Positions 5,333 to 25,745 are shown, counted from the first letter of the stretch. The stretch is 32,000 nt of DNA from an uncultured Erysipelotrichaceae bacterium (GCA_942493105.1 OW818668.1:300001-332000); one strand, 5' to 3'. Made by a program: numbers and translations. The notes: generated by a model from the sequence alone, not told the origin.

Positions 5333-5338
5333 GGGCTC

Positions 5339-6094: not shown

Positions 6095-6102
6095 AGTGGT
6101 TC

Positions 6103-7871: not shown

Positions 7872-7888
7872 ACTTGCCTTTCTAAACA

Positions 7889-7919
7889 CAAGAAGGCGCC
7901 TTATAAGGCACCTGTCTTG
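7889..7919 (-). promoter_or_regulatory. Intercistronic stem-loop between pstS and pstC
   Basis: The minus strand reads CAAGA-c-AGGTGCC ttataa GGCGCCT TCTTG: 12 pairs including one G-U, one bulge, and no following U-tract. Confidence 0.55.
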
Positions 7920-7974
7920 AATTGAATCTGTGTTCAATAAAGTTGTAAGTCTATACGTGATTTTAAAGACATTT

Positions 7975-8901
7975 CTATTTCAGTAGTTTTAAATCAGCTT
8001 CATAGTCTGCATCCGGTAAGGACACATAACCAACTTCTTTAGATAACTCTTTTGCGTTTTTGATGAAGAAGGTGACATAAGACAAGACCTCAGCTCTTTT
8101 TAGCGATGCTTTATTGACATAGATGAACAACGGTCTGGATAATGGATAAGTACTGTCAGCGATCGTTGCGAAGACTGGGGTAACTGCTGCTTTAACAGGA
8201 TCTTTGGTTAAAGGCACGACTTTTAATTTGTCTGCATTTTCTTCAAAGTAAGCAAATCCAAAGTAACCAATAGCACCTTTACCACCAGCAACACCAGTAA
8301 CCAAGATATTGTCATCTTCACTAAAGGAGATTTTAACAGTTTCTGAATCTTGTCTGATGACGCCTGCTTTTCCGTTGACAGCTTCAGTGAAGAAGTCGAA
8401 GGTTCCAGATTCATGACCTGGTGAGTAGATCACGATGTTTTCTTCTGGCCAACCAGCTCTGACATCAGACCATTTGGTTGCAGTTGCATCAGCCCCAAAG
8501 ATGGCTCTGAGTTCATCGAAGGTCAAGTAATCGACCCAAGTGTTTTGTTTATTGACGACAACGGATAAACCATCATAAGCGACTTTGAGTTCTAAGTATT
8601 CGATTTTCGCTGCAGCTACAGCATCTTTTTCAGCCTGTTTGATGGGTCTGGATGCGTTAGAGATATCGATTTCACCCGATGCAAATTTGGTGAATCCACC
8701 GCCTGTTCCTGAGAAACCTACTGTGATTTCAACGTCAGGATAATCTTTGTTATAATCTTCGGTAACCAATTCTGCGATTGGATAAACTGTAGATGATCCA
8801 TCAATGGCGATAGATCCTTTTAAACTCGTTTTTGGACTTGCACAAGCGGCTAAGCCAAGTGCGATCATAAGTGTACTGATCAGGATTTTATTTAACTTCA
8901 T
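7975..8901 (-). CDS. pstS: Phosphate-binding lipoprotein PstS
   Basis: 308 aa with a signal peptide and lipobox LGLAAC, plus the PBP-like motifs DGSSTVYP and SGTGGG. AGGAGG RBS at 8907-8912. Confidence 0.9.
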   Translation of the reverse strand: MKLNKILISTLMIALGLAACASPKTSLKGSIAIDGSSTVYPIAELVTEDYNKDYPDVEITVGFSGTGGGFTKFASGEIDISNASRPIKQAEKDAVAAAKIEYLELKVAYDGLSVVVNKQNTWVDYLTFDELRAIFGADATATKWSDVRAGWPEENIVIYSPGHESGTFDFFTEAVNGKAGVIRQDSETVKISFSEDDNILVTGVAGGKGAIGYFGFAYFEENADKLKVVPLTKDPVKAAVTPVFATIADSTYPLSRPLFIYVNKASLKRAEVLSYVTFFIKNAKELSKEVGYVSLPDADYEADLKLLK

Positions 8902-8935
8902 CTGTTCCTCCTGGAATTTGTTTTTCCTTGATCAT

Positions 8936-8989
8936 AGTATAGAAAAAAAGAAAACCGAATTGATTTCGGTTCAGTTAAGGTTTTGTTAA
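8936..8989 (-). promoter_or_regulatory. Putative Pho-regulated pstS promoter: -10 TATACT plus two Pho-box-like hexamers
   Basis: On the minus strand TTAACA (8989-8984), a 5-nt spacer, then TTAACT (8978-8973), giving 11-bp periodicity. TATACT at 8941-8936. No conventional -35 element. Confidence 0.35.
8941..8972 (-). terminator. Rho-independent terminator after the phoR-like gene
   Basis: On the minus strand AACCGAA atcaa TTCGGTT is followed by TTCTTTTTTTCT. Confidence 0.65.
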
Positions 8990-9002
8990 GAAAAATTTAC
9001 AT

Positions 9003-10229
9003 TTATATTGGGAATTTTATGGTAAAACAAGATCCCTTATCAACATTGCTGCTGACTTCTATGTCACCTTTATGCGCCAAGACAAACGATTTGACGATGG
9101 CTAATCCTAAACCACTACCGCCTGACGTTCTGGATCGTGATTGATCCGTACGATAAAAGCGTTCAAAGATGTATTTTTGATCTTCTTCTTTGATTCCTAT
9201 ACCTGTATCACTGACCTTTACGATACAGTAGGGACCATTTATTTCTGCAGATATGGTAATGGTTCCATCTTGCGTAAACTTGATCGCATTGGTCAACAGA
9301 TTGGTAAAGATCTGATGGGCTTTAACTCGATCTAGATTCAGTTGGATCCTTTTATCGATTTCCATAGTAAATATGTTGTTTTTCTCTTGAATCAAATGTT
9401 TAAGCGGAGTATATACATCTTGAATCAATTGGTTTAGGTTGACTGGTTCAGGATTTAATATGACTCTGTTGGATGAAAGTTTTGATAAAGACATGAGATC
9501 AGTAATGATATTATCCATTCTTAATGATTCTTTATCGATTTGATCCATGAATTCCCTTAATGTATCTTGATCATTGAAGTCGGGTCGATTCAAGATCTTG
9601 ATCATGCCCATGATGACCGACAACGGTGTTCTTAACTCATGTGATGCATCCGCTATGAAACGCTTTTGAACACGTTCTCCTTCTAAGATCTTGGTGATGT
9701 CTAAAAACATAAACAAACAACCAGCACTTCTTCCCCCATCAAAAACAGGAACAGACAAGGCTTGATAATCGATACTGTTGATGTTGAAGGTTCGAATAAG
9801 AACTTCGTCTTTGATATATGCATTTTTGATAAAACTTCCAATTTCTGGTTGAAAAGCTTTACTGTCATAGGCTAGCTTTTGTTTTGGATCAATGACGAAT
9901 TGTTCAAAAAGAACATTGCTTAAGACTATGTTTCCAACTTTATCCATCAAGGCAATCGGAAACGGTAAATTAGAGACGATGGTTTCAATTTGTGTGGATT
10001 TTAATTGGATGTTTTTTTCTTGCTGAAGACTGAGTTGATTGGCTTGTGAGATATGTCTTTGGTTCTCAAGACGATGAGCTTGTTCAAGTCTAACTATGAT
10101 GAAGGCATTACCTAAAATAGCGATCAAAGCTATTTCAATCAGAAAATCTTTAAATAGCCAGATGGATATCATCAATGCACCATTAAAAAGAATATAGTAA
10201 ACAATCTGTTTAGTTTTCATGAACTTCAT
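9003..10229 (-). CDS. phoR: Sensor histidine kinase, PhoR-like
   Basis: 408 aa with two N-terminal TM segments, H-box ASHELRTPL, and N/G boxes (LLTNAIKFT, DTGIGI, GGSGLGLAI). Adjacent to an OmpR-family regulator and the pst operon. ATG 10220 is an alternative start. Confidence 0.7.
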   Translation of the reverse strand: MKFMKTKQIVYYILFNGALMISIWLFKDFLIEIALIAILGNAFIIVRLEQAHRLENQRHISQANQLSLQQEKNIQLKSTQIETIVSNLPFPIALMDKVGNIVLSNVLFEQFVIDPKQKLAYDSKAFQPEIGSFIKNAYIKDEVLIRTFNINSIDYQALSVPVFDGGRSAGCLFMFLDITKILEGERVQKRFIADASHELRTPLSVIMGMIKILNRPDFNDQDTLREFMDQIDKESLRMDNIITDLMSLSKLSSNRVILNPEPVNLNQLIQDVYTPLKHLIQEKNNIFTMEIDKRIQLNLDRVKAHQIFTNLLTNAIKFTQDGTITISAEINGPYCIVKVSDTGIGIKEEDQKYIFERFYRTDQSRSRTSGGSGLGLAIVKSFVLAHKGDIEVSSNVDKGSCFTIKFPI

Positions 10230-10887
10230 CGAGAATATAACCGATGCCTCGTGATGATTTGATTTCTATGTGTGTGTTTTCAAGTTTGCTTCTTAGTTTA
10301 AAGACATGGACATCTACGATCCTTGTATCTCCGTCATATTCAAAGCCCCAGATCGTATTTAAGATTTGATCTCGTGATAAAACGATACCCTTGTTTTCTA
10401 TAAACATCATCAAGAGATCAAATTCTGTTTTTGTTAAATCAATGGGTTTATTTTGATAATGAACTTCACGGCTCTTTAAGTTGATGTGTAAACTTTGATG
10501 AGTCAGTGTTGATCCTATATTGGCTTTTAATCGACTTAAATGTGCTTTCATACGAACTAATAATTCACGAGAAGAGAATGGCTTAGTGAGATAATCATCG
10601 ACACCAGCTTCAAAAGCTTCAATAAGATCTTCTTCTTCGGATTTAGCCGTCAACATTATGATCAAAGCACTTTGATGATCTTCTCTAAGCTTTTTGACCA
10701 AGGTGATCCCATCCATTTCAGGCATCATCCAATCGATGATGAAGACATCAAAAGAATGAATTTTACTGAGCTCATAGGCAACTTTACCATTTTCACACAA
10801 GTTAAAATCATAGCCTGCCTGTTTAAGATCATAGGCAACTAAGCGTCTGATATTAAGTTCATCATCCACAAAACATACTTTGGTCAT
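10210..10887 (-). CDS. phoP: OmpR-family response regulator, PhoP-like
   Basis: REC domain (VCFVDDE ... DVFIIDWMMPEMDG ... LTAK) plus a winged-helix output (LTKTEFDLL ... GIGYIL). Start set to ATG 10887 (GGAG RBS 5 nt upstream) rather than 10914. Overlaps the kinase gene by 20 nt. Confidence 0.75.
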   Translation of the reverse strand: MTKVCFVDDELNIRRLVAYDLKQAGYDFNLCENGKVAYELSKIHSFDVFIIDWMMPEMDGITLVKKLREDHQSALIIMLTAKSEEEDLIEAFEAGVDDYLTKPFSSRELLVRMKAHLSRLKANIGSTLTHQSLHINLKSREVHYQNKPIDLTKTEFDLLMMFIENKGIVLSRDQILNTIWGFEYDGDTRIVDVHVFKLRSKLENTHIEIKSSRGIGYILDEVHEN

Positions 10888-10939
10888 AGCGTCTCCGTTA
10901 AGTTTATTATACATGAACAGGAGAAGAGCTTTGTTAAAT

Positions 10940-10970
10940 AAACTTCATAAAAAGCACCGAAGTGCTTTTA
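10940..10970 (-). terminator. Terminator after the aldo/keto reductase gene
   Basis: 8-bp stem AAAAGCAC (10950-10957) / GTGCTTTT (10962-10969) with loop CGAA. The TAA stop lies in the stem. T-rich tail on the minus strand. Confidence 0.55.
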
Positions 10971-12092
10971 AGGATGCGGAATATCTTTTGCGACTTGAAT
11001 CAAGTCATCGATGATGTGGATGTGTTGCGGACAAAGCGCTTCACAAGCCCCACATGCTTGACACATGTCGGCCCTTACTTCAGCTTTAAGATCTGTCCAA
11101 TAGCGTTTAATGGCTTTGGTTTCATCTCTAAAGATCGAATAATCATTCCAAATCTTGAAGTTTCTAGGAATATTGACTCCAAATGGACAAGGCATACAGT
11201 ATTCACAGCTCGTACAACCATTCTTTGTTCTCGCATTGATGATGTCATTGACTTTATGAACGATGGACATTTCTTCATCGCTAAGATCTTTATAGTGATT
11301 GAAGGTATTGAGATTATCTAAGACATGATCCATCGTACTCATTCCGCTTAATATAACTTTAACGTTTGGATGCGTTGCTACCCAACGCAAGGCCCATGAA
11401 GACAAGGAAGCTTTTGGATCATAATCTTTGAAAGGTTGGGCAATATCATCAGGTAAGGTTGCCAACATCCCACCTTTAATGGGTTCCATCACAACCAAAG
11501 GTATACCTAATTTTACAGTTAAATCATAACCTTTCTTTCCAGCTTGGATTTGAGTATCGATGTAGTTGTATTGAATCTGGCAGAAGTCCCATTGACGATA
11601 AGTTGCGATCTTTTCAAAGACAGGATATTCATCATGGAAAGAGAATCCTAGGTTTTTGATCTTGCCTTCTGCTTTAAGTTGTTCAACGACTTCAATGACA
11701 CCTAACTTAAGCAATAGATCCCACTTTTCTTGATCCAAGGCATGAAGCAAATAGAAGTCAACATAGTCGACTTGTAAACGAGCGAGTTGTTCATTGAATA
11801 TTCTTAAGGCATCATCTTTTGTCTTAAGTATCCAAATTGGAAGCTTGGTTGCGAGAAAAAATGATTCTCTTGGATGATTTTTTAATACTTTTCCTACAAA
11901 AGGTTCACTTTCTCCGTTATGATAAGGATAAGCTGTGTCAATATAGGTGACTCCATTGGCCATTGCTGTTTCAATCATTTCTGTTGCTTTGACTTCATCA
12001 ATCGACCCATCGGCTAAGGTTGGAAACCTCATACATCCAAATCCTAACAGTGATGGACTGATCCCTGACTTCTCAAATTTTCTAGTGTGCAT
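10968..12092 (-). CDS. Aldo/keto reductase with a C-terminal 4Fe-4S ferredoxin-type domain
   Basis: 374 aa. The N-terminal AKR fold (GFGCMRFP, IDTAYPYHNGESE, DYVDFYLLH) is followed by Cys clusters CTSCEYCMPCP and CQACGACEALCP. Confidence 0.8.
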   Translation of the reverse strand: MHTRKFEKSGISPSLLGFGCMRFPTLADGSIDEVKATEMIETAMANGVTYIDTAYPYHNGESEPFVGKVLKNHPRESFFLATKLPIWILKTKDDALRIFNEQLARLQVDYVDFYLLHALDQEKWDLLLKLGVIEVVEQLKAEGKIKNLGFSFHDEYPVFEKIATYRQWDFCQIQYNYIDTQIQAGKKGYDLTVKLGIPLVVMEPIKGGMLATLPDDIAQPFKDYDPKASLSSWALRWVATHPNVKVILSGMSTMDHVLDNLNTFNHYKDLSDEEMSIVHKVNDIINARTKNGCTSCEYCMPCPFGVNIPRNFKIWNDYSIFRDETKAIKRYWTDLKAEVRADMCQACGACEALCPQHIHIIDDLIQVAKDIPHP

Positions 12093-12609: not shown

Positions 12610-13668
12610 CTAAAAACTTAAACTGATTGAATGCACTAAATCATCAATTTCATACTTATCTTCATTAAAAACCTGTAGACATGCATCTACGACATCGCTG
12701 CGATAAGCGATGCCTTTTCTATTTTGAATTTCACTAAGTGCAGCTTCTTTACCTAAAGAAGGACGATATGGTCGATGCGACATCATGGCTTCAACCACAT
12801 CAGCCACGATCAAGATATGACTTTCCATCAAGATCTCACTTTCAATCAGTTGTCTAGGATATCCACTGCCATCACACCGTTCATGGTGCTGGTAAATGGT
12901 TTCTGCGACCGTTTCAGGAAGATTGGATCCTTTTAATAATTCATAGCCACTAAAGGAATGATTACGTAATAGTGCCATTTCTAGATCTGTTAATTTACCT
13001 GGTTTGCTTAAGATTTCAGCAGGGATACTGATCTTACCGATATCGTGGATATAGCCTATGGTTCGTATTTCTTCTGCTTTTTGTTTAGACATGTTCATTT
13101 TTTGGGCAATGACGGCAGCTAAATTTCCTACTCGGCGTTGATGGCCTGCTGTATAGGGGTCTCTAGATTCAACGACTTGCGATAAAAGCAAAATGATGCT
13201 TTCCATAGAGTGCTGTAAGGCAAAGGTACGACGTTCAACCATTCGTTCCAAATCTCTTTGATACTCCTGATTACGACTTTCAAGTTCTCTTTTTTGATCC
13301 AACAGTTTTTTAATTTCGGCTGCTTTACGAACGATGTTTAAGAAGTCATCCTTATGAATGGGTTTACTGATGTAGTCGCTGGCGCCGTTTTGTACAGCAC
13401 TGACTGCCGTTTCTACAGTAGGTTCACCTGTCATGATGATGATTTGCAGATCACTGGATTGCTTACGCAACTTCATCATCAGTTCGATTCCGCTTCCTTT
13501 AGGCATCACAATATCCGATACGACCACATCCGGATTAAACCGTTGTGCCTCTTGATAAGCTTCATCGGCATTTGATGCACTTAAAACTTCATAGCCTTCA
13601 TTAAAAAGAAATTTACTTAAGGTTATTCGTAGTGATACTTCATCGTCAACGATCAACACTTTAGTCAT
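12610..13668 (-). CDS. Response regulator with HD-GYP output domain (RpfG-type, putative c-di-GMP phosphodiesterase)
   Basis: REC domain (VLIVDDE ... VVSDIVMPKGSG ... MTGE) followed by HDIGKISIP and HHERCDGSGYP. Start set at ATG 13668 (GGAGG RBS), overlapping the kinase stop by 8 nt. Confidence 0.85.
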   Translation of the reverse strand: MTKVLIVDDEVSLRITLSKFLFNEGYEVLSASNADEAYQEAQRFNPDVVVSDIVMPKGSGIELMMKLRKQSSDLQIIIMTGEPTVETAVSAVQNGASDYISKPIHKDDFLNIVRKAAEIKKLLDQKRELESRNQEYQRDLERMVERRTFALQHSMESIILLLSQVVESRDPYTAGHQRRVGNLAAVIAQKMNMSKQKAEEIRTIGYIHDIGKISIPAEILSKPGKLTDLEMALLRNHSFSGYELLKGSNLPETVAETIYQHHERCDGSGYPRQLIESEILMESHILIVADVVEAMMSHRPYRPSLGKEAALSEIQNRKGIAYRSDVVDACLQVFNEDKYEIDDLVHSISLSF

Positions 13669-15757
13669 GAGTTGCCTCCATAGTTTCCCATCCATTATCT
13701 ACCGTTAAGATTACTCTAAACATACTGTATTCGCCTTTTATACTGTCTACGATGATTTCTCCATGGTGGTCTTTTACGATCCCATAACTGATGGATAAAC
13801 CCAATCCTGTTCCTTTATCTTTGGCTTTGGTGGAGTAAAAAGGCTCAAATATCTTCTGTATGATTTCCTCATCGATACCGGTCCCATAATCTTTGACCGA
13901 AAGCTCGATCCATTTTCGATCATTCTCATGGGTTAGGTGTGCTCTTATCTCGATTTTCTTGAGCGGATCAGATTGAGGATATCGATCATTGAGGGCATCT
14001 CTTAAATTGGTCAACAGATTCATGAGGACTTGTTGGATCTGTTGAGAACGACATTTGAAATCAGGAAGTTCAGGATCTAATTGGATGTCCAATACAATAT
14101 TGTCCTTTTTAAAGATCACATTGGTTAGTGAGACTGTTCTGTTAACGATGTCGTAAAGACTGGCATATGAATGCGATTGTTTTTCCATACGTGCAAACTG
14201 AAGTAAGTTTCTTACGATTTCTGATATTCTTTCGGTTTCGCGAATGATTTCTTTAGCGTAGCTTTCAGTTTCTTTGACTTGACCGAGTGAGTCTACAATC
14301 AACTGGGCATAGTTCATGATCCCATTGATGGGGTTATTGATCTCATGTGCCACACCACCGGCTAAACTGCCAATGGCTTCAAGTTTTTGTTGCTGACGCA
14401 TTTGAATCTCAAATTCTTGTTTTTGTAGTTGTAAAGCTTTGGCTTCTGTTATATCCAAAGCGAAAACTATGGCACCATTCTTGTTTAGAGTTCGATAAGG
14501 AATTGCCAAAACGGTGACATCTACCGGAGTTCCATCCATTTTAAGAAAGACCTCATCGTTGGCTGGAACCATTTTTTTATCTTCGTTTAATAGCCTTATA
14601 CGCTCTTTTATGACCTCTCTTGAATCAGGGTGAAAGTGTTCCATGACTGGTTCATCAAGCAATGCCTCAGCAGTTTTAATCCCAAATAAATTACACGCCA
14701 TTTTATTTAGATAGTAAAAACGATTATCTAATTGAATGAAAATTGCATAAGGAGCATTATCTACTAATGTCTTGAATTGTATTTCGCTATTGGCGAAATC
14801 AGACTGAGCAATAATTCGATCGGTTACATCATGAATGATCGAATAGATCATGTGTTTACCTAAACGCATGACAGGACCAGAATATACTTCTACATCTCGT
14901 AATTCACCATTTGCTAGACGATGTTTGAATTCAAAATGATTCTGCTTTTCTTCGACAGCCAACTTAAGTTTTTCTTCTATTTCATCTGGTGACATGGTAT
15001 TGATTTGACTGACCTTCATACTGGTCAAAGTTTTCTTGTCCCAACCATAATAATTCTCTGAGGCTTTATTGGCATCGATGATGTTTCCCGTTTTTGGATC
15101 AAGGATCAGCATCATGGCTTGATTTAAATCAAAGAAGGAACGATATAAAGACTCTGATTCACTAAGTTTGGATACCATGTCTGCATTCTCAACTTGAGTT
15201 TGAATCAATGCACTTAAGAGTAAAGAAGCCATTGGATAAAGTACCAAAACAGGTAATCCAATATTTTTATAGGTATTCATCGCAAGATCCCAAGGTAAGA
15301 TCAACATACACAACAACATAATGACATGTGTTAATACACCAAAAACATAAAGTTTCCACGCTTTACGACGAATCTTATTGGGTGAGGAGAAAGTTCGCCA
15401 AATCAACCCAAAAGCAGTGACACTCCCTATAACAAGAACTCCTGCTAATGCTCCAACACCACCTTGATATATCCTAAACAATGCAGCCATTATGGCAGCA
15501 ATGATAGCAGGAATAGCACCTAGATATAAAGCACTGACACTTAATAAGATAGACCTTGTATCAAAAACCAGACCTTCTACGAAAGTCATGGGGTTAGTCA
15601 TGACTGTTATTGCGATCACACCTAAAATCAACCCATCGATCACATCTGAGTATTTGCTGCGTCGATGAATGATGAGATGTCCTACTTGATTCAGGATGCT
15701 GACTGAGAGTAAAAGCCCAGCATTATTGACCAATTGGCTTAAGATTTCAAGATTCAT
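13661..15757 (-). CDS. Sensor histidine kinase with 5TMR-LYT-type membrane domain and PAS domains
   Basis: 698 aa from ATG 15757 (GGGAGA RBS). N-terminal multi-TM region with FDTRSILLS, as in the LytS/YhcK 5TM receptor. Two PAS-like segments, H-box GGVAHEINNP, and an ATPase domain with DYGTGI and GTGLGLSI. Confidence 0.8.
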   Translation of the reverse strand: MNLEILSQLVNNAGLLLSVSILNQVGHLIIHRRSKYSDVIDGLILGVIAITVMTNPMTFVEGLVFDTRSILLSVSALYLGAIPAIIAAIMAALFRIYQGGVGALAGVLVIGSVTAFGLIWRTFSSPNKIRRKAWKLYVFGVLTHVIMLLCMLILPWDLAMNTYKNIGLPVLVLYPMASLLLSALIQTQVENADMVSKLSESESLYRSFFDLNQAMMLILDPKTGNIIDANKASENYYGWDKKTLTSMKVSQINTMSPDEIEEKLKLAVEEKQNHFEFKHRLANGELRDVEVYSGPVMRLGKHMIYSIIHDVTDRIIAQSDFANSEIQFKTLVDNAPYAIFIQLDNRFYYLNKMACNLFGIKTAEALLDEPVMEHFHPDSREVIKERIRLLNEDKKMVPANDEVFLKMDGTPVDVTVLAIPYRTLNKNGAIVFALDITEAKALQLQKQEFEIQMRQQQKLEAIGSLAGGVAHEINNPINGIMNYAQLIVDSLGQVKETESYAKEIIRETERISEIVRNLLQFARMEKQSHSYASLYDIVNRTVSLTNVIFKKDNIVLDIQLDPELPDFKCRSQQIQQVLMNLLTNLRDALNDRYPQSDPLKKIEIRAHLTHENDRKWIELSVKDYGTGIDEEIIQKIFEPFYSTKAKDKGTGLGLSISYGIVKDHHGEIIVDSIKGEYSMFRVILTVDNGWETMEATHD

Positions 15758-15792
15758 AAAGATCTCCCGAGTGAACTTCAAACTACACATTT

Positions 15793-15833: not shown

Positions 15834-15859
15834 TATAAAAAAACCATGATTTCTCATGG
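15834..15859 (-). terminator. Rho-independent terminator ending the radical-SAM-like operon
   Basis: On the minus strand CCATGA gaaa TCATGG is followed by seven T. The TGA stop of the 471-aa gene sits in the stem. Confidence 0.65.
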
Positions 15860-17269
15860 CGTGAAGATGATTTGAGTTTTGATGGACTCGCTTAATTTTT
15901 GAGTCAGTGGATTATCATTTAAGATTTCTTGAGGGGTCATCAAAGTATACTGAGATTCTATGGTATCTTGTGCGATCGTTGTGGCTTCTTTTAATGCAGC
16001 AATTCCTTTATCAGCACCTAAATCAAAGATCCCTTTGGTTAAACTGGTTCCGATAGACTCAGGAATACTGGTCCCCGCAATGGATGCATTTAAACTGCTC
16101 TGAAGGGTTGAGTTTAGTAAAGTCGTTGCTTCTTTAGCCCAAGCTTGATCACCATAACGATCTTTGATGGCTGTAGCGGATACATTTAGGATGGCTTTAG
16201 CTAAGTGCTTTGACTTATTCTTAGGATCTTTTCTTGCATCTTTTACACCTAAAAACATGGTCTTAAGGGCTCCATAAGCAATCTTGATTTGTGCTCCGGC
16301 AGGACCAGCCAATTCAGCTAATCCATCGATTGCGACATCAGCTCCATATTGAAGTCCTTCTGATGCTTTGGTTGCTAGTTCTCCTCGATTGGCTTTTAAA
16401 ATTTGATCATATAGTGCTTTACATTTCTTTTCATAGGCACTTTTCAATTTCTTATGTGTGGCTGCATCAGCATCAGCAACTTGCGTTTCATAATTTATCT
16501 TTTCGGTTTCCAGTTGTTTAAGTAATGCTTGGGTTTCTTCATTAGGCTGCAGTTCACCTTTAGCCAGGGCTTTATATTCACTTCGAGCATTGGCTGCCAT
16601 AAGCGTCTTATCGATATCGATTTCACGTTTTTCCAGTTCTTTGAAACACTCTAGCCAAGGATTTGCTTCAGAATTGCCAGGTTCAAACATGGGTGCCATG
16701 GACTTCAGCAAAGCCTTCTGTTCCTGTACAGTGACATAATCTGATTGATTTTGTTGGATCCATGCGTCTCTTTCAGAAATGATACTTTGTTTAGCAGTTC
16801 GATCTTGTTCAACTGATTTCTTTTGTAGCTCTATCTGTTTGAGCTGTTCAGAAAGATAATCAAGATAGGCTTTGTTTTTATCACTTTGAACTTGATATTC
16901 ACTGGTGCTCTTATCGGCTGTCTTATCAATAGTTTCCCAGTTCTTTTTTGTTTGAGCTAATTCAGATTGAAGATCTTTAGCTGCCTTTGAAAGCAAAGAC
17001 AGGGCTTCATCATAGGCATCCGTTACGATTTTCTCTTGTTGGTGGGCATCATCAATGACTCCTTCAGTTATCCTAGATGCCATTCTTTCAGATTCCATCA
17101 TCAGTTCATCATAAAGCTCATCTTGCTTTATAGACATGTTGGTTGAGCGATAACCTGTCATTAAGGTATCCAGCATAAATAAGAGTCCTGCAGTGACTGC
17201 ACTGTCAGCCAGGACTACACCAAATACTTCACTGGAAGAATTGGTAACATGATCGACTTTGATTTTCAT
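15854..17269 (-). CDS. Hypothetical 471-aa protein: short N-terminal motif, one hydrophobic segment, long coiled-coil region and an A/G/S/T-rich C-terminal region
   Basis: Start at ATG 17269 (AAGGAGA RBS), forming an ATGA overlap with the upstream stop. N-terminus is MKIKVDHVTNSSSEVF, then GVVLADSAVTAGLLFMLDTLMTGY, then about 280 aa rich in K/E/Q heptads. I recognise no family. Confidence 0.6.
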   Translation of the reverse strand: MKIKVDHVTNSSSEVFGVVLADSAVTAGLLFMLDTLMTGYRSTNMSIKQDELYDELMMESERMASRITEGVIDDAHQQEKIVTDAYDEALSLLSKAAKDLQSELAQTKKNWETIDKTADKSTSEYQVQSDKNKAYLDYLSEQLKQIELQKKSVEQDRTAKQSIISERDAWIQQNQSDYVTVQEQKALLKSMAPMFEPGNSEANPWLECFKELEKREIDIDKTLMAANARSEYKALAKGELQPNEETQALLKQLETEKINYETQVADADAATHKKLKSAYEKKCKALYDQILKANRGELATKASEGLQYGADVAIDGLAELAGPAGAQIKIAYGALKTMFLGVKDARKDPKNKSKHLAKAILNVSATAIKDRYGDQAWAKEATTLLNSTLQSSLNASIAGTSIPESIGTSLTKGIFDLGADKGIAALKEATTIAQDTIESQYTLMTPQEILNDNPLTQKLSESIKTQIIFTP

Positions 17270-18354
17270 AAATGACTCTCCTTCTGATCGAACTGGAATC
17301 GATCGCATAAGGTAATTTCAGGGATGATGGGGCATCCTGAGTAACACGATGATCTACTGCTGCAACCACTGCATTTGCCTGTCTGCCTATTTCTGAATCG
17401 ATCAAAGACTTCACAATCCCAAGCTTCTTGGATACTCATCTCATCAAGTGAAACAGAATAGGCTTCATCTTTTTCGAAACTGCATGGGATCAGTTTATTG
17501 TCTGGACTAATGTAAGCTGAGAAACGTCCGGCTTCACAAGCTTCGATACATAAAGGACTGATTTTTGTGGTCAAGTTAAGGATCGCAGGGACACAACAAC
17601 TATCGAAACCCACTTTATTTGCGATCTCTACGCGATCCATCAGTGAAAAGAAATGCTGGACTTTGGGATCTTTGATGTCTAGTACTTGATCGTATGAACC
17701 AAAGCCTACAGGTTTATGAAGCAAGAAGATGATTCGATTGATCCCATGAGGCCATGACTTGTGTTCAATCAATTCAATGGCTTCTTCAAGTGTATCTCTA
17801 GAAAGCACATAATGAATGTTGGTTTTGATTCCGTAGTCCGTTAACATTTTAATCGCATCCATTGTGTAATGATTACGATACCAACTCACTGCTACAGCTC
17901 CACAACATTGTTTAATGACCGGTAATAATTTCTTATTTAATCCATATCCTGAGGTTGTGAAATTAGGTGTGACACCATGATTATGGGCATAGGTCAATAT
18001 TTTGATGATGTCGGGATGTTGATCAGGATCACCTCTTCCACCTAAAGCAATCTGAAATGTTTTGTTTTGAGCTTGGTCGATGATCTTTGAGAAAGTCTCA
18101 AAACTCATATGATCTTCTTCTATTTCTCCGCCTTTTTGATAACACTGAACTCCAGAAGCCAAACATAAGCCGCTTTTACCGTGTTCACATGAACCCATGA
18201 TCCCAATATCCAATAACTCAGGAAAACTGCCTTGAAATGGATCTAGTCCACTATCAATGCCTTCTTTAGTAAAGGTATTGCTTCTGGCTCCTTGACCTGT
18301 CACAGGATCAAAGAAACTCACATAGCGATATAAATCATCCCATCGTTTTTTCAT
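17266..18354 (-). CDS. Radical-SAM-like enzyme with a C-terminal SPASM domain and a non-canonical N-terminal Cys triad
   Basis: 362 aa. GGRGDP (a GGEP-like SAM-binding motif) and NFTTSG are present. The C-terminus has CEAGRFSAYISPDNKLIPC and CSGCSSRSSCYSGC (CX2CX5CX3C). The N-terminal cysteines are spaced C56-x7-C64-x6-C71 instead of CxxxCxxC. Confidence 0.65.
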   Translation of the reverse strand: MKKRWDDLYRYVSFFDPVTGQGARSNTFTKEGIDSGLDPFQGSFPELLDIGIMGSCEHGKSGLCLASGVQCYQKGGEIEEDHMSFETFSKIIDQAQNKTFQIALGGRGDPDQHPDIIKILTYAHNHGVTPNFTTSGYGLNKKLLPVIKQCCGAVAVSWYRNHYTMDAIKMLTDYGIKTNIHYVLSRDTLEEAIELIEHKSWPHGINRIIFLLHKPVGFGSYDQVLDIKDPKVQHFFSLMDRVEIANKVGFDSCCVPAILNLTTKISPLCIEACEAGRFSAYISPDNKLIPCSFEKDEAYSVSLDEMSIQEAWDCEVFDRFRNRQTGKCSGCSSRSSCYSGCPIIPEITLCDRFQFDQKESHL

Positions 18355-19147
18355 GTTTGATGACTGGTTTTGGGGTCATGAATTTTAAAAGCAAGCCTAC
18401 TGCCAACAATGCAAATCCCAGGTAATATCCTCCATACATCATCTGCATCAATATCAATGGGGCATCCAACAATAAACCTAAAATAAAACCACTTAAGATC
18501 ACATAGGTATGAAAATCAGTATATCTAAAAGGTAACTTCAAAGCTTTAGCAAGATCAGAGAAAATCAAACGAGCCATCTTAAAGATCCAATGCTTACGTC
18601 CTTCACCTAATAAATAAGAGATCGTAAAGGAAATGACGACGGCAATAAAGTACTTATCGAATTTATTTCGAGCTCCACTAAAGCGACTATATGACGCAAA
18701 ATTATTCGCAATGATCAACCCAACCCCTGACCCAATCAACAAGTAAACCTTCGCATTTTGTCTTAGCGCAGAATAAGCATGGATCAGTTCAGGTTTAAGT
18801 TGTTTAATGGGACGTAATGCTTCCCCAAATCCATTCTTTTGTATTTTTAAAAATAAGCGTTTCCCAAATGTAAAGATGATGATCCAATAAATGGTCTTAG
18901 GCAAGATGTCATTATACGTTGCGGTAAGAAAAATAATCGGTCCCGATATGAATGGTGGAATATACTGACTCACTGCTCTCCACCAAAAGGCAAACTGGAA
19001 AAACAAAACGATTCCCAACTGAATGGCCAATTGCTTAGATCGTTTAGGTAGATCTCGTAATGCAGCTTTGGTGATGACCCTTATCCAAGAGAAAAATGTC
19101 TCTTTAGGTCTGGCTTCTTGAGACGTCTGATGTGAACTTGTGGTCAT
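18335..19147 (-). CDS. Hypothetical polytopic membrane protein
   Basis: 270-aa ORF with GGAGA RBS at 19153-19157 and about six hydrophobic segments. No motif I recognise. Overlaps the next gene by 20 nt. Confidence 0.6.
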   Translation of the reverse strand: MTTSSHQTSQEARPKETFFSWIRVITKAALRDLPKRSKQLAIQLGIVLFFQFAFWWRAVSQYIPPFISGPIIFLTATYNDILPKTIYWIIIFTFGKRLFLKIQKNGFGEALRPIKQLKPELIHAYSALRQNAKVYLLIGSGVGLIIANNFASYSRFSGARNKFDKYFIAVVISFTISYLLGEGRKHWIFKMARLIFSDLAKALKLPFRYTDFHTYVILSGFILGLLLDAPLILMQMMYGGYYLGFALLAVGLLLKFMTPKPVIKHEKTMG

Positions 19148-22148: not shown

Positions 22149-22181
22149 AACCCTTGATGAATTCATCAAGGGTTGTTTTTT
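22149..22181. terminator. Bidirectional terminator between convergent genes
   Basis: Perfect palindrome AACCCTTGATGAATTCATCAAGGGTT (22149-22174) followed by GTTTTTT. The hydA stop is at 22180-22182. Confidence 0.8.
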
Positions 22182-23940
22182 ATTCACTTTCCAAATCTTT
22201 GAATCTGGGTTTTGCTGTGTAGTGTGTATGCAACAGTTCATGAGCCATATGACTGCCTGGTTCTTGAAGGAAGTTTTTATATAACTCTTGAATTTGAACA
22301 TTCTCATGAGATTTTCTAAATGTACGGCTCACATCTTCATCATACAAAGCATTCGCTCTGACTTTGATATAAGAAGTTCCAATGACATTACGGACGTTCG
22401 CATTGATGATGGATTGGCCACCACCGTTGACACAACCGCCTGGACAACCCATGATTTCGATGAAATGATAAGGTGATTTGCCTGCTCTGATGTCATCGAG
22501 TAAAGGTTTAGCTAATTTCATACTATGAACGACCGCTACTTTAACGATTGTCCCATTGATGTCGACTGAGGCTTCTTTGACACCATCGCCTCTAAGCGCT
22601 AGGAAGTTAACATCAGCCAAAGGTTTCTTAGTTAAGATTTCAGTTACTGTTCTTAAGGCAGCTTCCATAACTCCACCAGATGCTCCAAAGATGACACCGG
22701 CACCTGTATATTCACCAAACATGTCTTGATCAAATTCTTCATCAGGCAAGGTTGGGAAATCGATACCATAAAGCTTAATAAGTCTGCCTAATTCTCGGGT
22801 CGTCAAGACTGCATCGACATCTCGCATCTCTGTGAAATGATTGATTCGAGTCTTTTCTTCTTTTTTAGCTGTACAAGGCATGATTGAAACCACATAGACA
22901 TCTTTTGGATCAACTTGCTTGGTTTCTGCAAAGTAACTCTTTAAGATGGCTCCAAACATCATGTGTGGAGATTTACAGGTAGATACATTAGGGATCAAAT
23001 CTGGATACTCAAATTCCATATAACGGATCCATCCTGGTGAACAAGAAGTCAATAAAGGTAAGACACCCTTGTGTTTAAAGCGATGAATAAACTCAGTGCC
23101 TTCTTCCATGATGGTCAAATCAGCTGCATAGTTGGTATCATATACGCGATCAAAGCCAATTAAACGAAGTGCAGCAACCATTTTACCGGTTACACGTGTT
23201 CCAATCGGCATTCCAAATTCTTCGCCTAGTGATGCTCTAACCGCTGGAGCTGTTTGAACAACGACAACTTTCTTAGGATCATTTAAAGCATTGATGACAT
23301 CATGAATTTCTTCTTTTTCACTTAATGCCCCAACTGGACATACGTTGATACATTGCCCACATTGCATACAATTGACATCATTAAAACTTCGATCGAAAAC
23401 AGGACCAACTTTAGTTTCAAATCCTCTGTCGATAAAGTTTAGGATACCTAAGCCTTGTGTCTTTTTACATTGTTCAATACATCTTCCACACAAGATACAT
23501 TTTGAAGTATCCCTTACAATGCCTGGAGAGACTTCATCAAAGGTTTGTTTAGCCAAAGCTCCTTTGATGTAAGTATGACGCACATTAAGATCTTGAGCCA
23601 ACGTTTGAAGTTCACAGTTTTGATTACGGATACAACTTAAGCAATCTTTACTGTGATTGGATAAAATAAGCTCAACTGTTTTTCTGCGAGAAGAAATAAC
23701 ACGTTTTGAATGAGTTTGTATTTCCATGCCTTCTGAGACAGGATAATTACAAGAGGTCACCAAAGAACGAAGTCCTTTGATTTCGATGACACAGACACGG
23801 CAAGCACCAGATTGATTGATGTCTTTTAAGAAACAAAGACTGGGAACCTGAATTCCTATTTTACGGATGGCTTGTAGGACGGTTTGGTTGGCTTCAACTT
23901 CATATTCTTTGAAGTTGACCTTGATTTTTACAGTGTTCAT
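22180..23940 (-). CDS. hydA: [FeFe]-hydrogenase catalytic subunit (M3 architecture), HydA
   Basis: 586 aa with an N-terminal 2Fe-2S ferredoxin fold and accessory clusters CILCGRCIEQC and CMQCGQCINVCP. H-cluster motifs are L1 TSCSPGW (variant), L2 MPCTAKKEE and L3 EIMGCPGGCVNGGGQ. Confidence 0.9.
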   Translation of the reverse strand: MNTVKIKVNFKEYEVEANQTVLQAIRKIGIQVPSLCFLKDINQSGACRVCVIEIKGLRSLVTSCNYPVSEGMEIQTHSKRVISSRRKTVELILSNHSKDCLSCIRNQNCELQTLAQDLNVRHTYIKGALAKQTFDEVSPGIVRDTSKCILCGRCIEQCKKTQGLGILNFIDRGFETKVGPVFDRSFNDVNCMQCGQCINVCPVGALSEKEEIHDVINALNDPKKVVVVQTAPAVRASLGEEFGMPIGTRVTGKMVAALRLIGFDRVYDTNYAADLTIMEEGTEFIHRFKHKGVLPLLTSCSPGWIRYMEFEYPDLIPNVSTCKSPHMMFGAILKSYFAETKQVDPKDVYVVSIMPCTAKKEEKTRINHFTEMRDVDAVLTTRELGRLIKLYGIDFPTLPDEEFDQDMFGEYTGAGVIFGASGGVMEAALRTVTEILTKKPLADVNFLALRGDGVKEASVDINGTIVKVAVVHSMKLAKPLLDDIRAGKSPYHFIEIMGCPGGCVNGGGQSIINANVRNVIGTSYIKVRANALYDEDVSRTFRKSHENVQIQELYKNFLQEPGSHMAHELLHTHYTAKPRFKDLESE

Positions 23941-23948
23941 GATTTCAC

Positions 23949-25745
23949 CTAAGCTCTTTCAACTGCACCAAATGGGCAGTTTTGGACACAAGCTCCACAA
24001 CGAATACATTTGATCGCATCGATTACATAAGGTTCTTTGCCTAAGACGCCACTAATGGCTGATGTAGGACAACCTTTAGCACATAAACCACATTTCTTAC
24101 ATGCATCTTTATTAATGGAATAATCCAGTAATGATTTACATACTTTAGCTGGACATTTCTTATCTACCACATGGGCTAAATACTCATCTTTAAAATGTTT
24201 AAGTGTGGATAAAACAGGATTAGAAGCCGTTTGACCTAAACCGCATAATGAACTGTCTTTGACATGGATGGCCAAAGCTTCCAAATCGGTTAGGGTCTGC
24301 ATGGTTGCCTTGCCTTCACAAATATCGATCAGCATCTCCAACATACGCTTGGTTCCAATACGACAAGGTGAACATTTACCGCAAGATTCATCTACGATAA
24401 AATCCATATAGAAACGTGCCACATCGACCATACAGTTATCTTCATCTAATATGATCATACCGCCTGATCCCATCATAGAACCTAAGGCAATGAGATTATC
24501 GAAATCGATTGGGGTATCTAAATGTTCTTCGGTTAAACAACCCCCAGAAGGACCACCTGTTTGAACGGCTTTAAAATTCTTGTGTTCAGGACATCCTCCA
24601 CCGATCTCATAAATGACTTCTCTTAAAGTTGTACCCATTGGAACTTCAACTAAACCGGTATTGACGATTTTTCCGCCTAAGGCGAAAACCTTGGTTCCTT
24701 TTGATTTTTCAGTTCCTATGGATGCAAACCAATCTGCCCCTTGATTGATGATGGCAGGAATATTCGCAAATGTTTCCACATTATTGATGATGGTTGGTTT
24801 GCCCCATACGCCTTTTACAGCAGGAAATGGAGGCTTGACACTAGGCATACCGCGTCTGCCTTCTATTGATGCGATCAATGCGGTTTCTTCACCACAGACG
24901 AAAGCACCCGCTCCTAAACGAATTTCAATATCAAACTTAAATCCGGTATTGAAAATGTTCTTACCTAGCATCCCATATTCCTCAGCTTGACCGATCGCGA
25001 TTTTTAAACGTTCAACAGCGATCGGATACTCAGCACGGATATACACATAACCATGGTTAGCTCCAATCGCATAACCAGCAATCGCCATAGCTTCAATGAC
25101 AGAGTGTGGATCGCCTTCCAAAATAGAACGATCCATAAATGCTCCTGGATCTCCTTCATCCGCATTACAAATAACGTACTTTTCATCATTGACTTGATTG
25201 GCTGCAAATTGCCACTTATTTCCAGTAGGAAAACCACCGCCTCCACGTCCTCTTAATCCAGAACGTTTCATCTCGTCTATGACATTTTGCGGAGTCATAC
25301 TCGTCAGTACTTTCGCTAAAGCTTGATAACCATCTAGGGCTATATATTCAGTTACATCTTCAGGGTTGATCAATCCGCAATTGCGTAAGGCAATGCGTTG
25401 TTGTTTCGCATAGAATTTGATCTTTTCAAATTCAAAAATCTTTTCTTTGGTTTCTTCATCGATGTCTGTGATTTCTAAACGTTTGACTGGACGTCCTTTA
25501 TACAGATGTTCATTGACGATCTCATCGATATCCCCTAAAGTAACATGACTATAGAAAACTTTATCAGGATGGATCGCAATGATTGGACCTTTTTGGCATA
25601 ATCCAAAACAGCCTGTCTTAACGACTTTGACTTCGTTTTGAAGATCCTTCATCTTGATGACTTCTTCAAGACGTTTAACGAGCTCTAATGATTTAGAAGA
25701 GGTACAGCCTGTACCAGCACAGACCAAAACATGTGTTCTTTCCAT
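23949..25745 (-). CDS. hydB: NuoF-like flavoprotein subunit of a bifurcating-type hydrogenase, HydB
   Basis: 598 aa with an N-terminal thioredoxin-like 2Fe-2S domain (CAGTGC ... CFGLC) and an FMN/NADH module GRGGGGFPTGNKW. The N3-type cluster is SCGKCSPCR, and there are two C-terminal ferredoxin motifs, CKKCGLCAKGCP and CIRCGACVQNCP. Confidence 0.9.
   Translation of the reverse strand: MERTHVLVCAGTGCTSSKSLELVKRLEEVIKMKDLQNEVKVVKTGCFGLCQKGPIIAIHPDKVFYSHVTLGDIDEIVNEHLYKGRPVKRLEITDIDEETKEKIFEFEKIKFYAKQQRIALRNCGLINPEDVTEYIALDGYQALAKVLTSMTPQNVIDEMKRSGLRGRGGGGFPTGNKWQFAANQVNDEKYVICNADEGDPGAFMDRSILEGDPHSVIEAMAIAGYAIGANHGYVYIRAEYPIAVERLKIAIGQAEEYGMLGKNIFNTGFKFDIEIRLGAGAFVCGEETALIASIEGRRGMPSVKPPFPAVKGVWGKPTIINNVETFANIPAIINQGADWFASIGTEKSKGTKVFALGGKIVNTGLVEVPMGTTLREVIYEIGGGCPEHKNFKAVQTGGPSGGCLTEEHLDTPIDFDNLIALGSMMGSGGMIILDEDNCMVDVARFYMDFIVDESCGKCSPCRIGTKRMLEMLIDICEGKATMQTLTDLEALAIHVKDSSLCGLGQTASNPVLSTLKHFKDEYLAHVVDKKCPAKVCKSLLDYSINKDACKKCGLCAKGCPTSAISGVLGKEPYVIDAIKCIRCGACVQNCPFGAVERA

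What the first reader, a model, noticed from the sequence alone, without database searches (positions are those of the whole stretch)
18142..18189. Radical-SAM-like enzyme lacks CxxxCxxC and has C-x7-C-x6-C instead
The region about 40 residues upstream of the GGEP-like motif (here GGRGDP) normally carries CxxxCxxC. Here it reads GSCEHGKSGLCLASGVQCY. I checked the codons TGT at 18187-18189 and 18142-18144. The C-terminal SPASM signature CX2CX5CX3C (CSGCSSRSSCYSGC, 17332-17373) and the preceding C-x17-C twitch-like element are intact. So the auxiliary clusters look conserved while the SAM-cluster motif is re-spaced. Non-canonical spacings are known in a few radical SAM enzymes (ThiC, HmdB, some QueE), but I do not recognise this one.
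Basis: seen in the sequence. Interest (0 to 1): 0.65.

Follow-up and report, generated by a model that had tools for sequence, protein, structure and literature searches.

The report
Re-spaced radical-SAM enzyme with tagged partners
This gene encodes a radical-SAM/SPASM-type iron-sulfur enzyme whose three key cysteines are spread out (C-x7-C-x6-C instead of C-x3-C-x2-C); it belongs to a large unstudied family in anaerobic bacteria and their phages that almost always sits next to proteins starting with the same 16-residue tag (MKIRxDFVTNSSSxxF), which are probably what it modifies.

Summary
ORF 17266-18354 (-) has Cys56/64/71 spaced C-x7-C-x6-C, no CxxxCxxC, and an intact SPASM cysteine set. 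The re-spacing interpretation is supported. The three Cys are invariant in 120 homologues. Close relatives have canonical CxxxCxxC, or intermediate spacings, at exactly the same place, between the beta1 strand and a conserved C-Y-Q. An AlphaFold model (pLDDT 91.6) matches SuiB, anSME and PqqE. Activity is untested.

The new result is the partner. In 77 of 80 genomes the enzyme gene abuts one or more ORFs beginning M-K-[IVF]-[RK]-x-[DG]-[FYH]-V-T-N-S-S-S-x-x-[FY]. These ORFs are otherwise unrelated. In the reverse test, 65 of 76 phage contigs chosen only by that tag carry the enzyme within 10 kb.

The window holds the membrane version: a polytopic membrane protein, the enzyme, and a tagged membrane-anchored 471-aa protein whose ATG overlaps the enzyme stop (ATGA).

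No Pfam or NCBIfam model and no paper found describes the family, the tag or the spacing. I read it as a protein-modifying radical-SAM maturase with an expanded cluster loop. The chemistry is unknown.

The parts
17266..18354 (-). Radical-SAM/SPASM-type enzyme, 362 aa, of an uncurated family that matches PHROG 7293
   Evidence: ORF. Pfam SPASM passes threshold and Radical_SAM is sub-threshold. AF2 pLDDT is 91.6. Foldseek hits SuiB, anSME and PqqE. phrog_7293 matches at E 7e-26.
18142..18189 (-). Expanded radical-SAM cluster loop C56-x7-C64-x6-C71 (codons 18187-18189, 18163-18165, 18142-18144)
   Evidence: Codons read. The Cys are invariant in homologues. They align with CxxxCxxC of canonical relatives.
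18025..18042 (-). GGRGDP, the counterpart of the GGEP SAM-binding motif with a one-residue insertion
   Evidence: Invariant in the clade. Canonical relatives have GG-GEP or GG-GNP in the same columns.
17305..17598 (-). SPASM region with conserved Cys 253, 273, 291, 328, 331, 337, 341 and 350 (CX2CX5CX3C at 17332-17373)
   Evidence: Pfam PF13186 covers residues 273-331 at 26.5 bits. Cys conservation is shown.
15854..17269 (-). Tagged partner protein, 471 aa. The true start is the ATG at 17267-17269, which overlaps the enzyme stop (ATGA). The 484-aa ORF call starts too early.
   Evidence: Homologues start at MKIKVDHVTNSSS. There is an AAGGAG Shine-Dalgarno sequence upstream.
17222..17269 (-). 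N-terminal tag MKIKVDHVTNSSSEVF, the proposed recognition or modification site
   Evidence: There are 301 unique instances of the motif, and 293 lie exactly at an N-terminus. The motif is adjacent to the enzyme in 77/80 genomes. This is the only match in the window.
17144..17221 (-). Hydrophobic, TM-like segment directly after the tag (GVVLADSAVTAGLLFMLDTLMTGY...)
   Evidence: The Kyte-Doolittle 19-mer maximum is 2.06. This feature co-occurs with the upstream membrane protein in 35 loci.
18335..19147 (-). Polytopic all-alpha membrane protein, 270 aa. It has no known family and overlaps the enzyme start by 20 nt.
   Evidence: No Pfam, NCBIfam or PADLOC hit. It is present in 39/81 loci, only where the tagged protein has a TM segment. 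The AF2 model has no PDB fold match.

Best explanation
The ORF encodes a working member of a large, uncharacterised radical-SAM/SPASM maturase family.

In this clade the loop after beta1 that holds the SAM-binding [4Fe-4S] cluster has grown by insertions in both intervals, from C-x3-C-x2-C to C-x7-C-x6-C. C56, C64 and C71 remain the three cluster ligands. The GGEP motif has become GG-R-GDP. Two auxiliary clusters are held by the SPASM cysteines.

The enzyme acts on the 16-residue N-terminal tag (M-K-[IVF]-[RK]-x-[DG]-[FYH]-V-T-N-S-S-S-x-x-[FY]) of the protein encoded next to it. In the window that protein is a translationally coupled, N-in membrane-anchored 471-aa protein. The upstream 270-aa membrane protein is a further component specific to membrane-anchored substrates.

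What is shown: the fold, the homology of the Cys triad to the canonical one, its conservation, and the two-way genomic linkage with tagged proteins.

What is inferred: that the cluster still binds and cleaves SAM, and that the tag is the substrate.

What is speculative: the chemistry. It could be H-abstraction within the invariant T-N-S-S-S stretch. That could give a Ser oxidation of the anSME kind, or a cross-link to the flanking aromatic residue of the kind made by cyclophane-forming SPASM enzymes.
For: Fold: Foldseek hits SuiB, anSME, PqqE and CteB at E 5e-11 to 2e-8.

Triad: C56, C64 and C71 are invariant in 120 homologues.

Homology to the canonical motif: relatives with canonical and intermediate spacings sit in the same alignment frame. 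A rough tree runs from canonical, through Cx5Cx2/3C, to Cx7Cx6C.

Shared core: about 45 core positions are shared by canonical and expanded clades, including H113, N131, T133, G136, S157, N179, H181, K214 and all SPASM Cys.

Partner, forward test: a tagged ORF is adjacent in 77/80 genome loci. The median gap is -1 nt and 74/75 lie within 150 nt.

Partner, reverse test: 65/76 viral contigs picked by the tag alone carry the enzyme within 10 kb, with 1-7 tagged ORFs per locus.

Same partner across spacings: tagged ORFs also lie near canonical-motif relatives (P0178, P0181) and near Cx5Cx3C and Cx5Cx6C relatives. Enzymes with and without the canonical spacing therefore share partners.

Co-degeneration: a relative that lost the Cys triad (P0173) sits next to a partner whose tag has lost NSSS (DFVTSLCGGSF).

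Protein-level selection on the tag: both Ser codon families are used.
Against: Pfam Radical_SAM is below its gathering score (26.2 vs 29.5).

The aromatic residue that normally precedes C3 is Gln here.

No known radical-SAM enzyme listed in the RadicalSAM.org survey changes the C2-C3 spacing. ThiC does, but with a very different active site (PMC4389238).

Cys-less relatives exist, so parts of the family can dispense with the cluster.

Cys convergence in the model was not measured.

The co-degeneration case is a single example.

Tagged partners are up to 919 aa and include folded domains (TIR, LRR, beta-propeller), which is unlike classical RiPP substrates.

No biochemical data exist.
Confidence: 0.6

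Rival explanations
1. Pseudo- or repurposed radical-SAM protein. The fold and an Fe-S cluster on C56/C64/C71 are kept, but the expanded loop no longer supports SAM binding and cleavage. The protein would then act as a redox, structural or binding partner (a chaperone or adaptor) for tagged proteins rather than as a radical enzyme.
For: PF04055 is below threshold. The C2-C3 spacing and the aromatic residue before C3, both normally near-universal, are altered. GGEP is altered to GGRGDP. Truly Cys-less relatives exist in the same family (P0167, P0173, P0176, P0225), so loss of the cluster is tolerated somewhere in the family.
Against: The three Cys and the inserted H-G-x-S-G and S-G residues are under strong purifying selection. 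The acidic/amide residue of GG(x)G[DEN]P and the other core residues are the same as in canonical relatives. Canonical-motif relatives share the same tagged partners. The one Cys-less relative with a partner has a partner whose NSSS is also degenerate, which suggests that intact enzymes need the triad to act on NSSS.
Confidence: 0.2
2. The tagged proteins are not substrates. The tag would be an N-terminal sorting, packaging or interaction signal read by other machinery. The enzyme would make or modify something else (a small molecule, lipid or cofactor) needed by these proteins.
For: Tagged proteins are large and heterogeneous (99-919 aa; TIR, LRR, beta-propeller, TM/coiled-coil). The membrane protein co-occurs strictly with TM-type tagged proteins, which would fit a sorting role. 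No RRE-type leader-binding domain was identified.
Against: The only component common to all loci other than the tag is the enzyme. Soluble-type loci contain just the enzyme plus tagged ORFs. The closest structural relatives are peptide- or protein-modifying SPASM enzymes. No small-molecule pathway genes are conserved nearby. T-N-S-S-S is fully invariant within matches selected on a related pattern, and K2, D6, F7 and F16 are near-invariant without selection, which is more than a sorting signal usually needs.
Confidence: 0.15
3. The real relic of the canonical motif is C64-x3-G68-x2-C71 (CxxxCxxC with the middle Cys lost), and C56 is unrelated to the cluster.
For: The C64-C71 distance equals the C1-C3 distance of CxxxCxxC. 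Local HMM alignments to MftC and Pfam models start at residues 64-71.
Against: The family alignment anchors C56 three residues after beta1, exactly like C1 of canonical relatives, and C71 before the shared Y-Q. Intermediates such as Cx5Cx3C and Cx5Cx6C cannot be read that way. C56 is invariant.
Confidence: 0.05

Closest known systems
SPASM-domain radical SAM peptide/protein maturases (SuiB, anSME, PqqE, CteB, SkfB)
   Same: It shares the partial TIM-barrel plus C-terminal SPASM fold (Foldseek E 5e-11 to 2e-7, TM about 0.6). It has a full 7-8 Cys SPASM pattern. Its gene sits next to its likely protein substrate(s), often several in tandem.
   Different: The cluster loop is Cx7Cx6C, not CX3CX2C. 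GGEP carries an insertion. Sequence scores against every curated equivalog are far below cut-off. The putative substrates are whole proteins that share only a 16-residue N-terminal tag. No RRE was seen.
Radical SAM enzymes with non-canonical cluster motifs (ThiC CX2CX4C, HmdB CX5CX2C, QueE CX14CX2C, and the RadicalSAM.org clusters with CX4-11CX2C)
   Same: Three Cys in one loop bind the SAM cluster with non-standard spacing (PMC9477430; PMC4389238).
   Different: Nearly all known variants change only the first interval and keep CX2C. Here the second interval is also expanded (x6, and x3 or x8 in relatives). One family spans a graded series from canonical to expanded.
Anaerobic sulfatase-maturating enzyme (anSME/AtsB)
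   Same: It is a SPASM enzyme that modifies a Ser or Cys in a short conserved motif of a folded protein substrate. It is among the top fold matches.
   Different: TIGR03942 scores 10.6 against a cut-off of 349. The target motif is T-N-S-S-S at the extreme N-terminus, not (C/S)xPxR. The partners are not sulfatases.
Radical SAM cyclophane synthases (triceptide-type; HaaB, HtkB, XyeB family)
   Same: These SPASM enzymes cross-link an aromatic residue (Phe, Tyr, Trp or His) to a nearby side chain within a short motif (PMC11499958). The tag has an obligatory aromatic residue (F/Y/H) two residues before the invariant Thr.
   Different: There is no sequence-level membership. Their substrates are short peptides with leader regions. 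The resemblance is only a lead for the chemistry.

Membership tests
Radical SAM superfamily (PF04055) | Partial (beta/alpha)6 TIM-barrel core | tested here: met
   The AF2 model (pLDDT 91.6) matches SuiB, anSME, PqqE and viperin with probability 1.0.
Radical SAM superfamily (PF04055) | CX3CX2C motif after beta1 | tested here: not met
   The spacing is Cx7Cx6C. The three Cys are, however, positionally homologous to the CX3CX2C of close relatives.
Radical SAM superfamily (PF04055) | Pfam gathering score | tested here: not met
   The score is 26.2 bits against a cut-off of 29.5. The match covers residues 71-150 only.
Radical SAM superfamily (PF04055) | GGE(P) SAM-binding motif at the end of beta2 | tested here: inconclusive
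   The motif is GGRGDP. Glycines, an acidic residue and Pro are kept, with a one-residue insertion. Canonical relatives have GG-GEP or GG-GNP in the same columns.
Radical SAM superfamily (PF04055) | Three Cys converge on one [4Fe-4S] cluster; reductive SAM cleavage | not testable with these tools
No biochemistry is available.
SPASM domain (PF13186 / TIGR04085) | Model score above cut-off | tested here: met
   PF13186 scores 26.5 against 21.5. TIGR04085 scores 26.6 against 27, marginally below.
SPASM domain (PF13186 / TIGR04085) | Seven to eight Cys, including CX2CX5CX3C and flanking Cys, for two auxiliary clusters | tested here: met
   C253, C273, C291, C328, C331, C337, C341 and C350 are conserved in the clade and in canonical relatives.
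Curated rSAM/SPASM equivalogs (MftC, NirJ2, W-cofactor maturase, GeoRSP, PqqE, anSME, AhbD) | NCBIfam trusted cut-off | tested here: not met
   The best score is 50.7 bits against a cut-off of 265 (MftC). All others are lower.
Prokaryotic viperins (PADLOC pVip) | Full-length match and defence context | tested here: not met
   There is only a weak partial hit (27.9 bits, residues 71-209). The protein has a SPASM domain, which viperins lack.
PHROG 7293 (phage protein family of unknown function) | Profile match over most of the length | tested here: met
   E 6.8e-26, residues 26-329 against profile positions 41-351 of 384. The family has no assigned function.
RiPP maturase system | Short precursor peptide with a leader, and an RRE domain in the enzyme | tested here: inconclusive
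   Tandem partner genes with a conserved N-terminus and variable remainder resemble precursors. However, they are 99-919 aa proteins, and no RRE was detected by Pfam.

The most novel reading that the evidence does not exclude
This would be an undescribed enzyme-tag system. A radical-SAM/SPASM family with a uniquely plastic cluster loop (from CX3CX2C up to CX7CX6C/CX7CX8C) would covalently modify one universal 16-residue N-terminal tag. That tag is carried by hundreds of otherwise unrelated proteins: membrane-anchored coiled-coil proteins, TIR, LRR and beta-propeller proteins, and arrays of small early phage proteins. The system occurs in anaerobic Bacillota and their large phages. It would be a new protein-level post-translational modification, with a dedicated membrane component for anchored substrates.
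Probability: 0.45. Interest if true: 0.85.

Novelty: new variant of a known kind. Interest (0 to 1): 0.7.

Why it matters
First, it would extend the rules for how a radical-SAM cluster can be bound. The CX2C half of the motif is treated as almost inviolable. Here one family shows a graded natural series of expansions in both intervals, while the rest of the active site and the partner stay the same. That makes it a ready-made system for asking what the loop geometry really has to provide.

Second, most members fail the Pfam Radical_SAM threshold and carry only a SPASM annotation. They are therefore likely to be missing from radical-SAM censuses.

Third, the tight two-way linkage to an invariant N-terminal FVTNSSS tag on very diverse proteins points to an unrecognised protein modification. 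The tagged proteins include TIR-domain proteins and tandem arrays in large phages. The modification may matter for phage-host interactions in gut and anaerobic-digester Bacillota.

Cultured carriers exist for experiments: Fusibacter bizertensis, Flavonifractor sp. An92 and Lacrimispora amygdalina.

Tried and rejected
1. Reading the loop as C64-x3-G-x2-C71, a canonical motif with the middle Cys lost. Local HMM alignments suggested it. The family alignment with canonical and intermediate relatives rejected it.

2. Sequence search of PDB chains. The single sequence gave nothing relevant. The profile gave only weak SPASM-region matches to PqqE and anSME. The fold search was needed.

3. Defence-system assignment. 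PADLOC gave only weak pVip hits for the enzyme and nothing for the neighbours.

4. Identity of the neighbours. Pfam, NCBIfam and PHROG gave nothing for the membrane protein or the 471-aa partner. The membrane protein's AF2 model (pLDDT 81.8) has no PDB fold match; the best E-value is 0.8.

5. Literature. No paper holds CX7CX6C together with radical SAM. No relevant paper holds VTNSSS or TNSSSSSF. The Aravind conflict-systems paper describes different SPASM systems (FxSxx).

I replaced it with a peptide-pattern scan.

7. Isolated phages. Only distant homologues (about 29% identity, Cx7Cx2C) occur, in T4-like Klebsiella, Enterobacter and Cronobacter phages, with no tagged neighbours. A canonical relative next to polysaccharide genes also lacks tagged neighbours. 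The partner link therefore does not cover the whole superfamily branch.

8. Measuring Cys-Cys distances was not possible, because model coordinates are not exposed.

Full report
OBSERVATION. The minus-strand ORF 17266..18354 encodes a 362-aa protein. Reading the codons confirms TGT at 18187-18189 (Cys56), 18163-18165 (Cys64) and 18142-18144 (Cys71). This gives GSC-EHGKSGL-C-LASGVQ-C-YQ, which is C-x7-C-x6-C. None of the 16 cysteines forms CxxxCxxC.

IS IT A RADICAL-SAM/SPASM PROTEIN?
- Pfam gives SPASM above threshold (26.5 vs 21.5 bits). Radical_SAM is just below threshold (26.2 vs 29.5), matching residues 71-150 only.
- NCBIfam gives only far-sub-threshold hits to MftC, NirJ2, the tungsten-cofactor maturase, GeoRSP, PqqE and others.
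- A PDB sequence search was uninformative for the single sequence. With a profile it was weak and confined to the SPASM region.
- An AlphaFold2 model built on a 49-sequence alignment is confident (pLDDT 91.6, pTM 0.90).
- Foldseek places the model with SPASM radical-SAM maturases: SuiB (E 5e-11, TM 0.63), anSME, PqqE, CteB, ChlB and SkfB, followed by viperins, BtrN and MoaA.
- The secondary structure puts the three Cys in the loop right after the first core strand (E47-53). That is where the SAM cluster loop sits in this fold.

IS THE TRIAD CONSERVED AND HOMOLOGOUS TO CX3CX2C? In the 120 best homologues (49-91% identity), C56 and C64 are present in 120/121 aligned sequences and C71 in 121/121. 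The inserted residues H58, G59, G62 and G68 are also conserved, and GGRGDP is invariant.

A profile search of 1.84 billion representative proteins found 414 clusters at E<=1e-30. Among the best 150 there are full-length relatives with canonical CxxxCxxC at the same place (for example CTKGCPYCYQ and CDRGCGYCYQ). Others carry Cx4Cx2C, Cx5Cx2C, Cx5Cx3C, Cx5Cx6C, Cx7Cx2C, Cx7Cx8C or Cx9Cx2C.

All of them share two anchors: the beta1 strand (PELLD[IV]xI, then 2-3 residues, then C1) and a Y-Q after C3. So C56=C1, C64=C2 and C71=C3, with insertions in both intervals. An alternative reading, C64-x3-G-x2-C71, was suggested by local HMM alignments. This family frame rejects it.

A rough NJ tree orders the classes. 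Canonical loops with GG-GEP/GNP come first, then canonical loops with GGxG[DN]P, then Cx5Cx2/3C, then Cx5Cx6C and Cx7Cx6C. About 45 core positions outside the loop are the same in canonical and expanded clades, including all SPASM cysteines. A few relatives have lost the triad altogether.

The RadicalSAM.org survey lists natural variants only of the CXnCX2C type (PMC9477430). ThiC (CX2CX4C; PMC4389238) is the familiar exception. Expansion of the C2-C3 interval is therefore the unusual feature. No paper in the library combines CX7CX6C with radical SAM.

SURROUNDINGS. Upstream, overlapping the enzyme start by 20 nt, is a 270-aa polytopic membrane protein (18335..19147). It has no Pfam, NCBIfam or PADLOC match.

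Downstream is an ORF called as 484 aa. Homologues show that it really starts at the ATG at 17267-17269, which overlaps the enzyme's TGA (ATGA) and follows an AAGGAG. The product is 471 aa and begins MKIKVDHVTNSSSEVF. A hydrophobic TM-like segment follows, and then a long region whose only family matches are weak, sub-threshold coiled-coil-type hits (KIF21A-like and SMC).

The same three-gene cassette recurs in a 74%-identical homologue's contig and in a Tepidanaerobacteraceae MAG.

THE CONSERVED PARTNER. I fetched 80 genome loci encoding Cx7Cx6C-type homologues (46-73% identity). Most are anaerobic Bacillota. Some are Anaerolineaceae, Dehalococcoidales, Bacteroidales or Atopobiaceae. At least 285 species representatives have a relative.

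In 77 of the 80 loci an ORF beginning M-K-[IVFY]-[RK]-x-[DG]-[FYH]-[VI]-T-N-S-S-S-x-x-[FY] lies next to the enzyme gene. The three exceptions are contigs that end at the gene. Where the distance to the nearest tagged ORF could be measured (75 loci), the median gap is -1 nt. 74 of 75 lie within 150 nt. 64 are downstream and 11 upstream.

Across all fetched loci there are 301 unique instances of the motif. 293 begin exactly at a start codon. K2, R/K4, D/G6, F/Y/H7 and F/Y16 are each present in more than 96% of instances, although the search pattern did not require them. Both serine codon families are used, so selection acts on the peptide.

Beyond residue 16 or so the proteins are unrelated. They are 99-919 aa long. 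Some carry TIR_2, BspA-type LRR or PQQ-like beta-propeller domains, and most have no Pfam match.

REVERSE TEST. I scanned IMG/VR with only the peptide pattern [DG]FVTNSSS. It matched 453 stretches, of which 339 were confirmed. Of the 76 fetched loci (+/-10 kb), 65 contain a strong enzyme homologue (E 1e-124 to 1e-185), and the loci carry 1-7 tagged ORFs each. In three viral loci inspected in detail, the tagged ORFs form tandem arrays directly after the enzyme gene among non-structural genes.

Tagged ORFs also accompany relatives with canonical CxxxCxxC (P0178, P0181), Cx5Cx3C (P0150) and Cx5Cx6C (P0157). A Cys-less relative (P0173) is preceded by a partner whose tag reads DFVTSLCGGSF, so NSSS is lost there as well.

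More distant homologues lack tagged neighbours. These are the T4-like Klebsiella, Enterobacter and Cronobacter phages (about 29% identity, Cx7Cx2C) and a canonical relative next to polysaccharide genes.

TWO ARCHITECTURES. Clustering the neighbours separates two types.
- In the membrane type, the membrane protein is present in 39/81 loci. It co-occurs with tagged proteins whose tag is followed by a hydrophobic segment (35 loci with both; the two apparent exceptions are truncated contigs). A 313-aa protein is added in 17 loci.
- In the soluble type (32 loci), there are one to four soluble tagged proteins and no membrane protein.

The window belongs to the membrane type. The membrane protein family has only 144 detectable homologues, all annotated hypothetical. 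Its AF2 model (pLDDT 81.8, all-alpha) has no PDB fold match.

INTERPRETATION. The most economical reading is that this is an active radical-SAM/SPASM maturase with an expanded cluster-binding loop, and that it acts on the N-terminal tag of adjacent proteins.
- Shown: the fold, the triad's homology and conservation, and the two-way linkage.
- Inferred: retention of SAM cleavage. This rests on purifying selection on the triad, on the shared core, and on canonical relatives having the same partners. The tag being the substrate is also inferred, from adjacency, translational coupling, tandem partner arrays and the single co-degeneration case.
- Speculative: the chemistry. The invariant T-N-S-S-S flanked by obligatory aromatic residues suggests either Ser/Thr C-H activation, as in anSME, or an aromatic-to-side-chain cross-link, as in radical-SAM cyclophane synthases (PMC11499958).

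Three rivals remain open:
- a cluster-bearing but SAM-inactive adaptor;
- a tag that is a sorting signal rather than a substrate;
- the CxxxGxxC reading, which the alignment disfavours.

COMPARISON AND NOVELTY. By fold and SPASM content the protein works like the SuiB, anSME and PqqE class. It fails the formal CX3CX2C criterion and the Pfam Radical_SAM threshold, and it belongs to no curated equivalog. It matches PHROG 7293, and the small partners match PHROG 7397. Both have unknown function. I found no description of the spacing, the family or the tag. I rate it a new variant of a known kind, with a realistic chance that the enzyme-tag pairing represents a new protein modification system.

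Noticed in passing
window 15854-17308 (-): The mechanical ORF call (484 aa, ATG at 17308) starts 13 codons too early. Homologues and a Shine-Dalgarno sequence place the start at the ATG at 17267-17269, in an ATGA overlap with the enzyme's stop codon.
   Followed up: yes
L084 1186-3417; L055 1413-2819; L085 6071-8830: Some tagged partner proteins carry a TIR_2 domain, BspA-type leucine-rich repeats or a PQQ-like beta-propeller. This hints at roles in conflict or defence, or at the cell surface.
   Followed up: partly
L099 4446-4787 and 5001-6011: A relative of the enzyme lacks the Cys triad and has a truncated SPASM domain. It sits after a 113-aa partner whose tag has degenerated to MQIKTDFVTSLCGGSF. 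The enzyme and the tag appear to have decayed together.
   Followed up: partly
L007 3869-5038 (Cronobacter phage GAP161, NC_019398.1); 172 phage records: T4-like Klebsiella, Enterobacter and Cronobacter phages encode a distant homologue (about 29% identity) with a Cx7Cx2C loop and a degenerate GGEP region (ALGADAQGQTNPD). No tagged ORFs lie nearby.
   Followed up: partly
L158 7375-10432; L102 9564-11926; L129 7743-10306: Large uncultivated phages (contigs of 80-500 kb) carry tandem arrays of 5-7 small tagged ORFs directly after the enzyme gene, among DNA-metabolism and early-type genes. One recurring member has a Cys-rich, zinc-ribbon-like region (…SSSSSFVCDICG…).
   Followed up: partly
window residue C151 of the enzyme (17902-17904): An extra cysteine (K148-x-x-C151-G152) is conserved in 120/121 homologues and in most canonical relatives. 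It lies outside both the SAM-cluster loop and the SPASM region. Its role is unknown.
   Followed up: no
window 12610-15790 (-): A 5TMR-LYT/PAS histidine kinase and a response regulator with an HD-GYP-type HD domain lie directly downstream of the cassette. They are not conserved next to it in other genomes.
   Followed up: partly
window 22180-25745 (-) and 10968-12092 (-): The window also holds an [FeFe]-hydrogenase large subunit, a NuoF-like flavoprotein with Fe-S domains, and an aldo/keto reductase fused to a 4Fe-4S dicluster domain. These fit a strictly anaerobic Erysipelotrichaceae-like host. The nearest partner homologue comes from an Erysipelotrichaceae MAG, and the source contig is 2.03 Mb.
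   Followed up: no
window 4688-10914 (-): A phosphate uptake locus is present: a PstS-like binding protein, two permeases, an ABC ATPase and PhoU, together with a PhoR/PhoB-like two-component pair. This is ordinary.
   Followed up: no
L003 8536-9486 and 16 other loci: A 313-316 aa protein with no Pfam match follows the tagged protein in 17 membrane-type loci. It is absent from the window.
   Followed up: no
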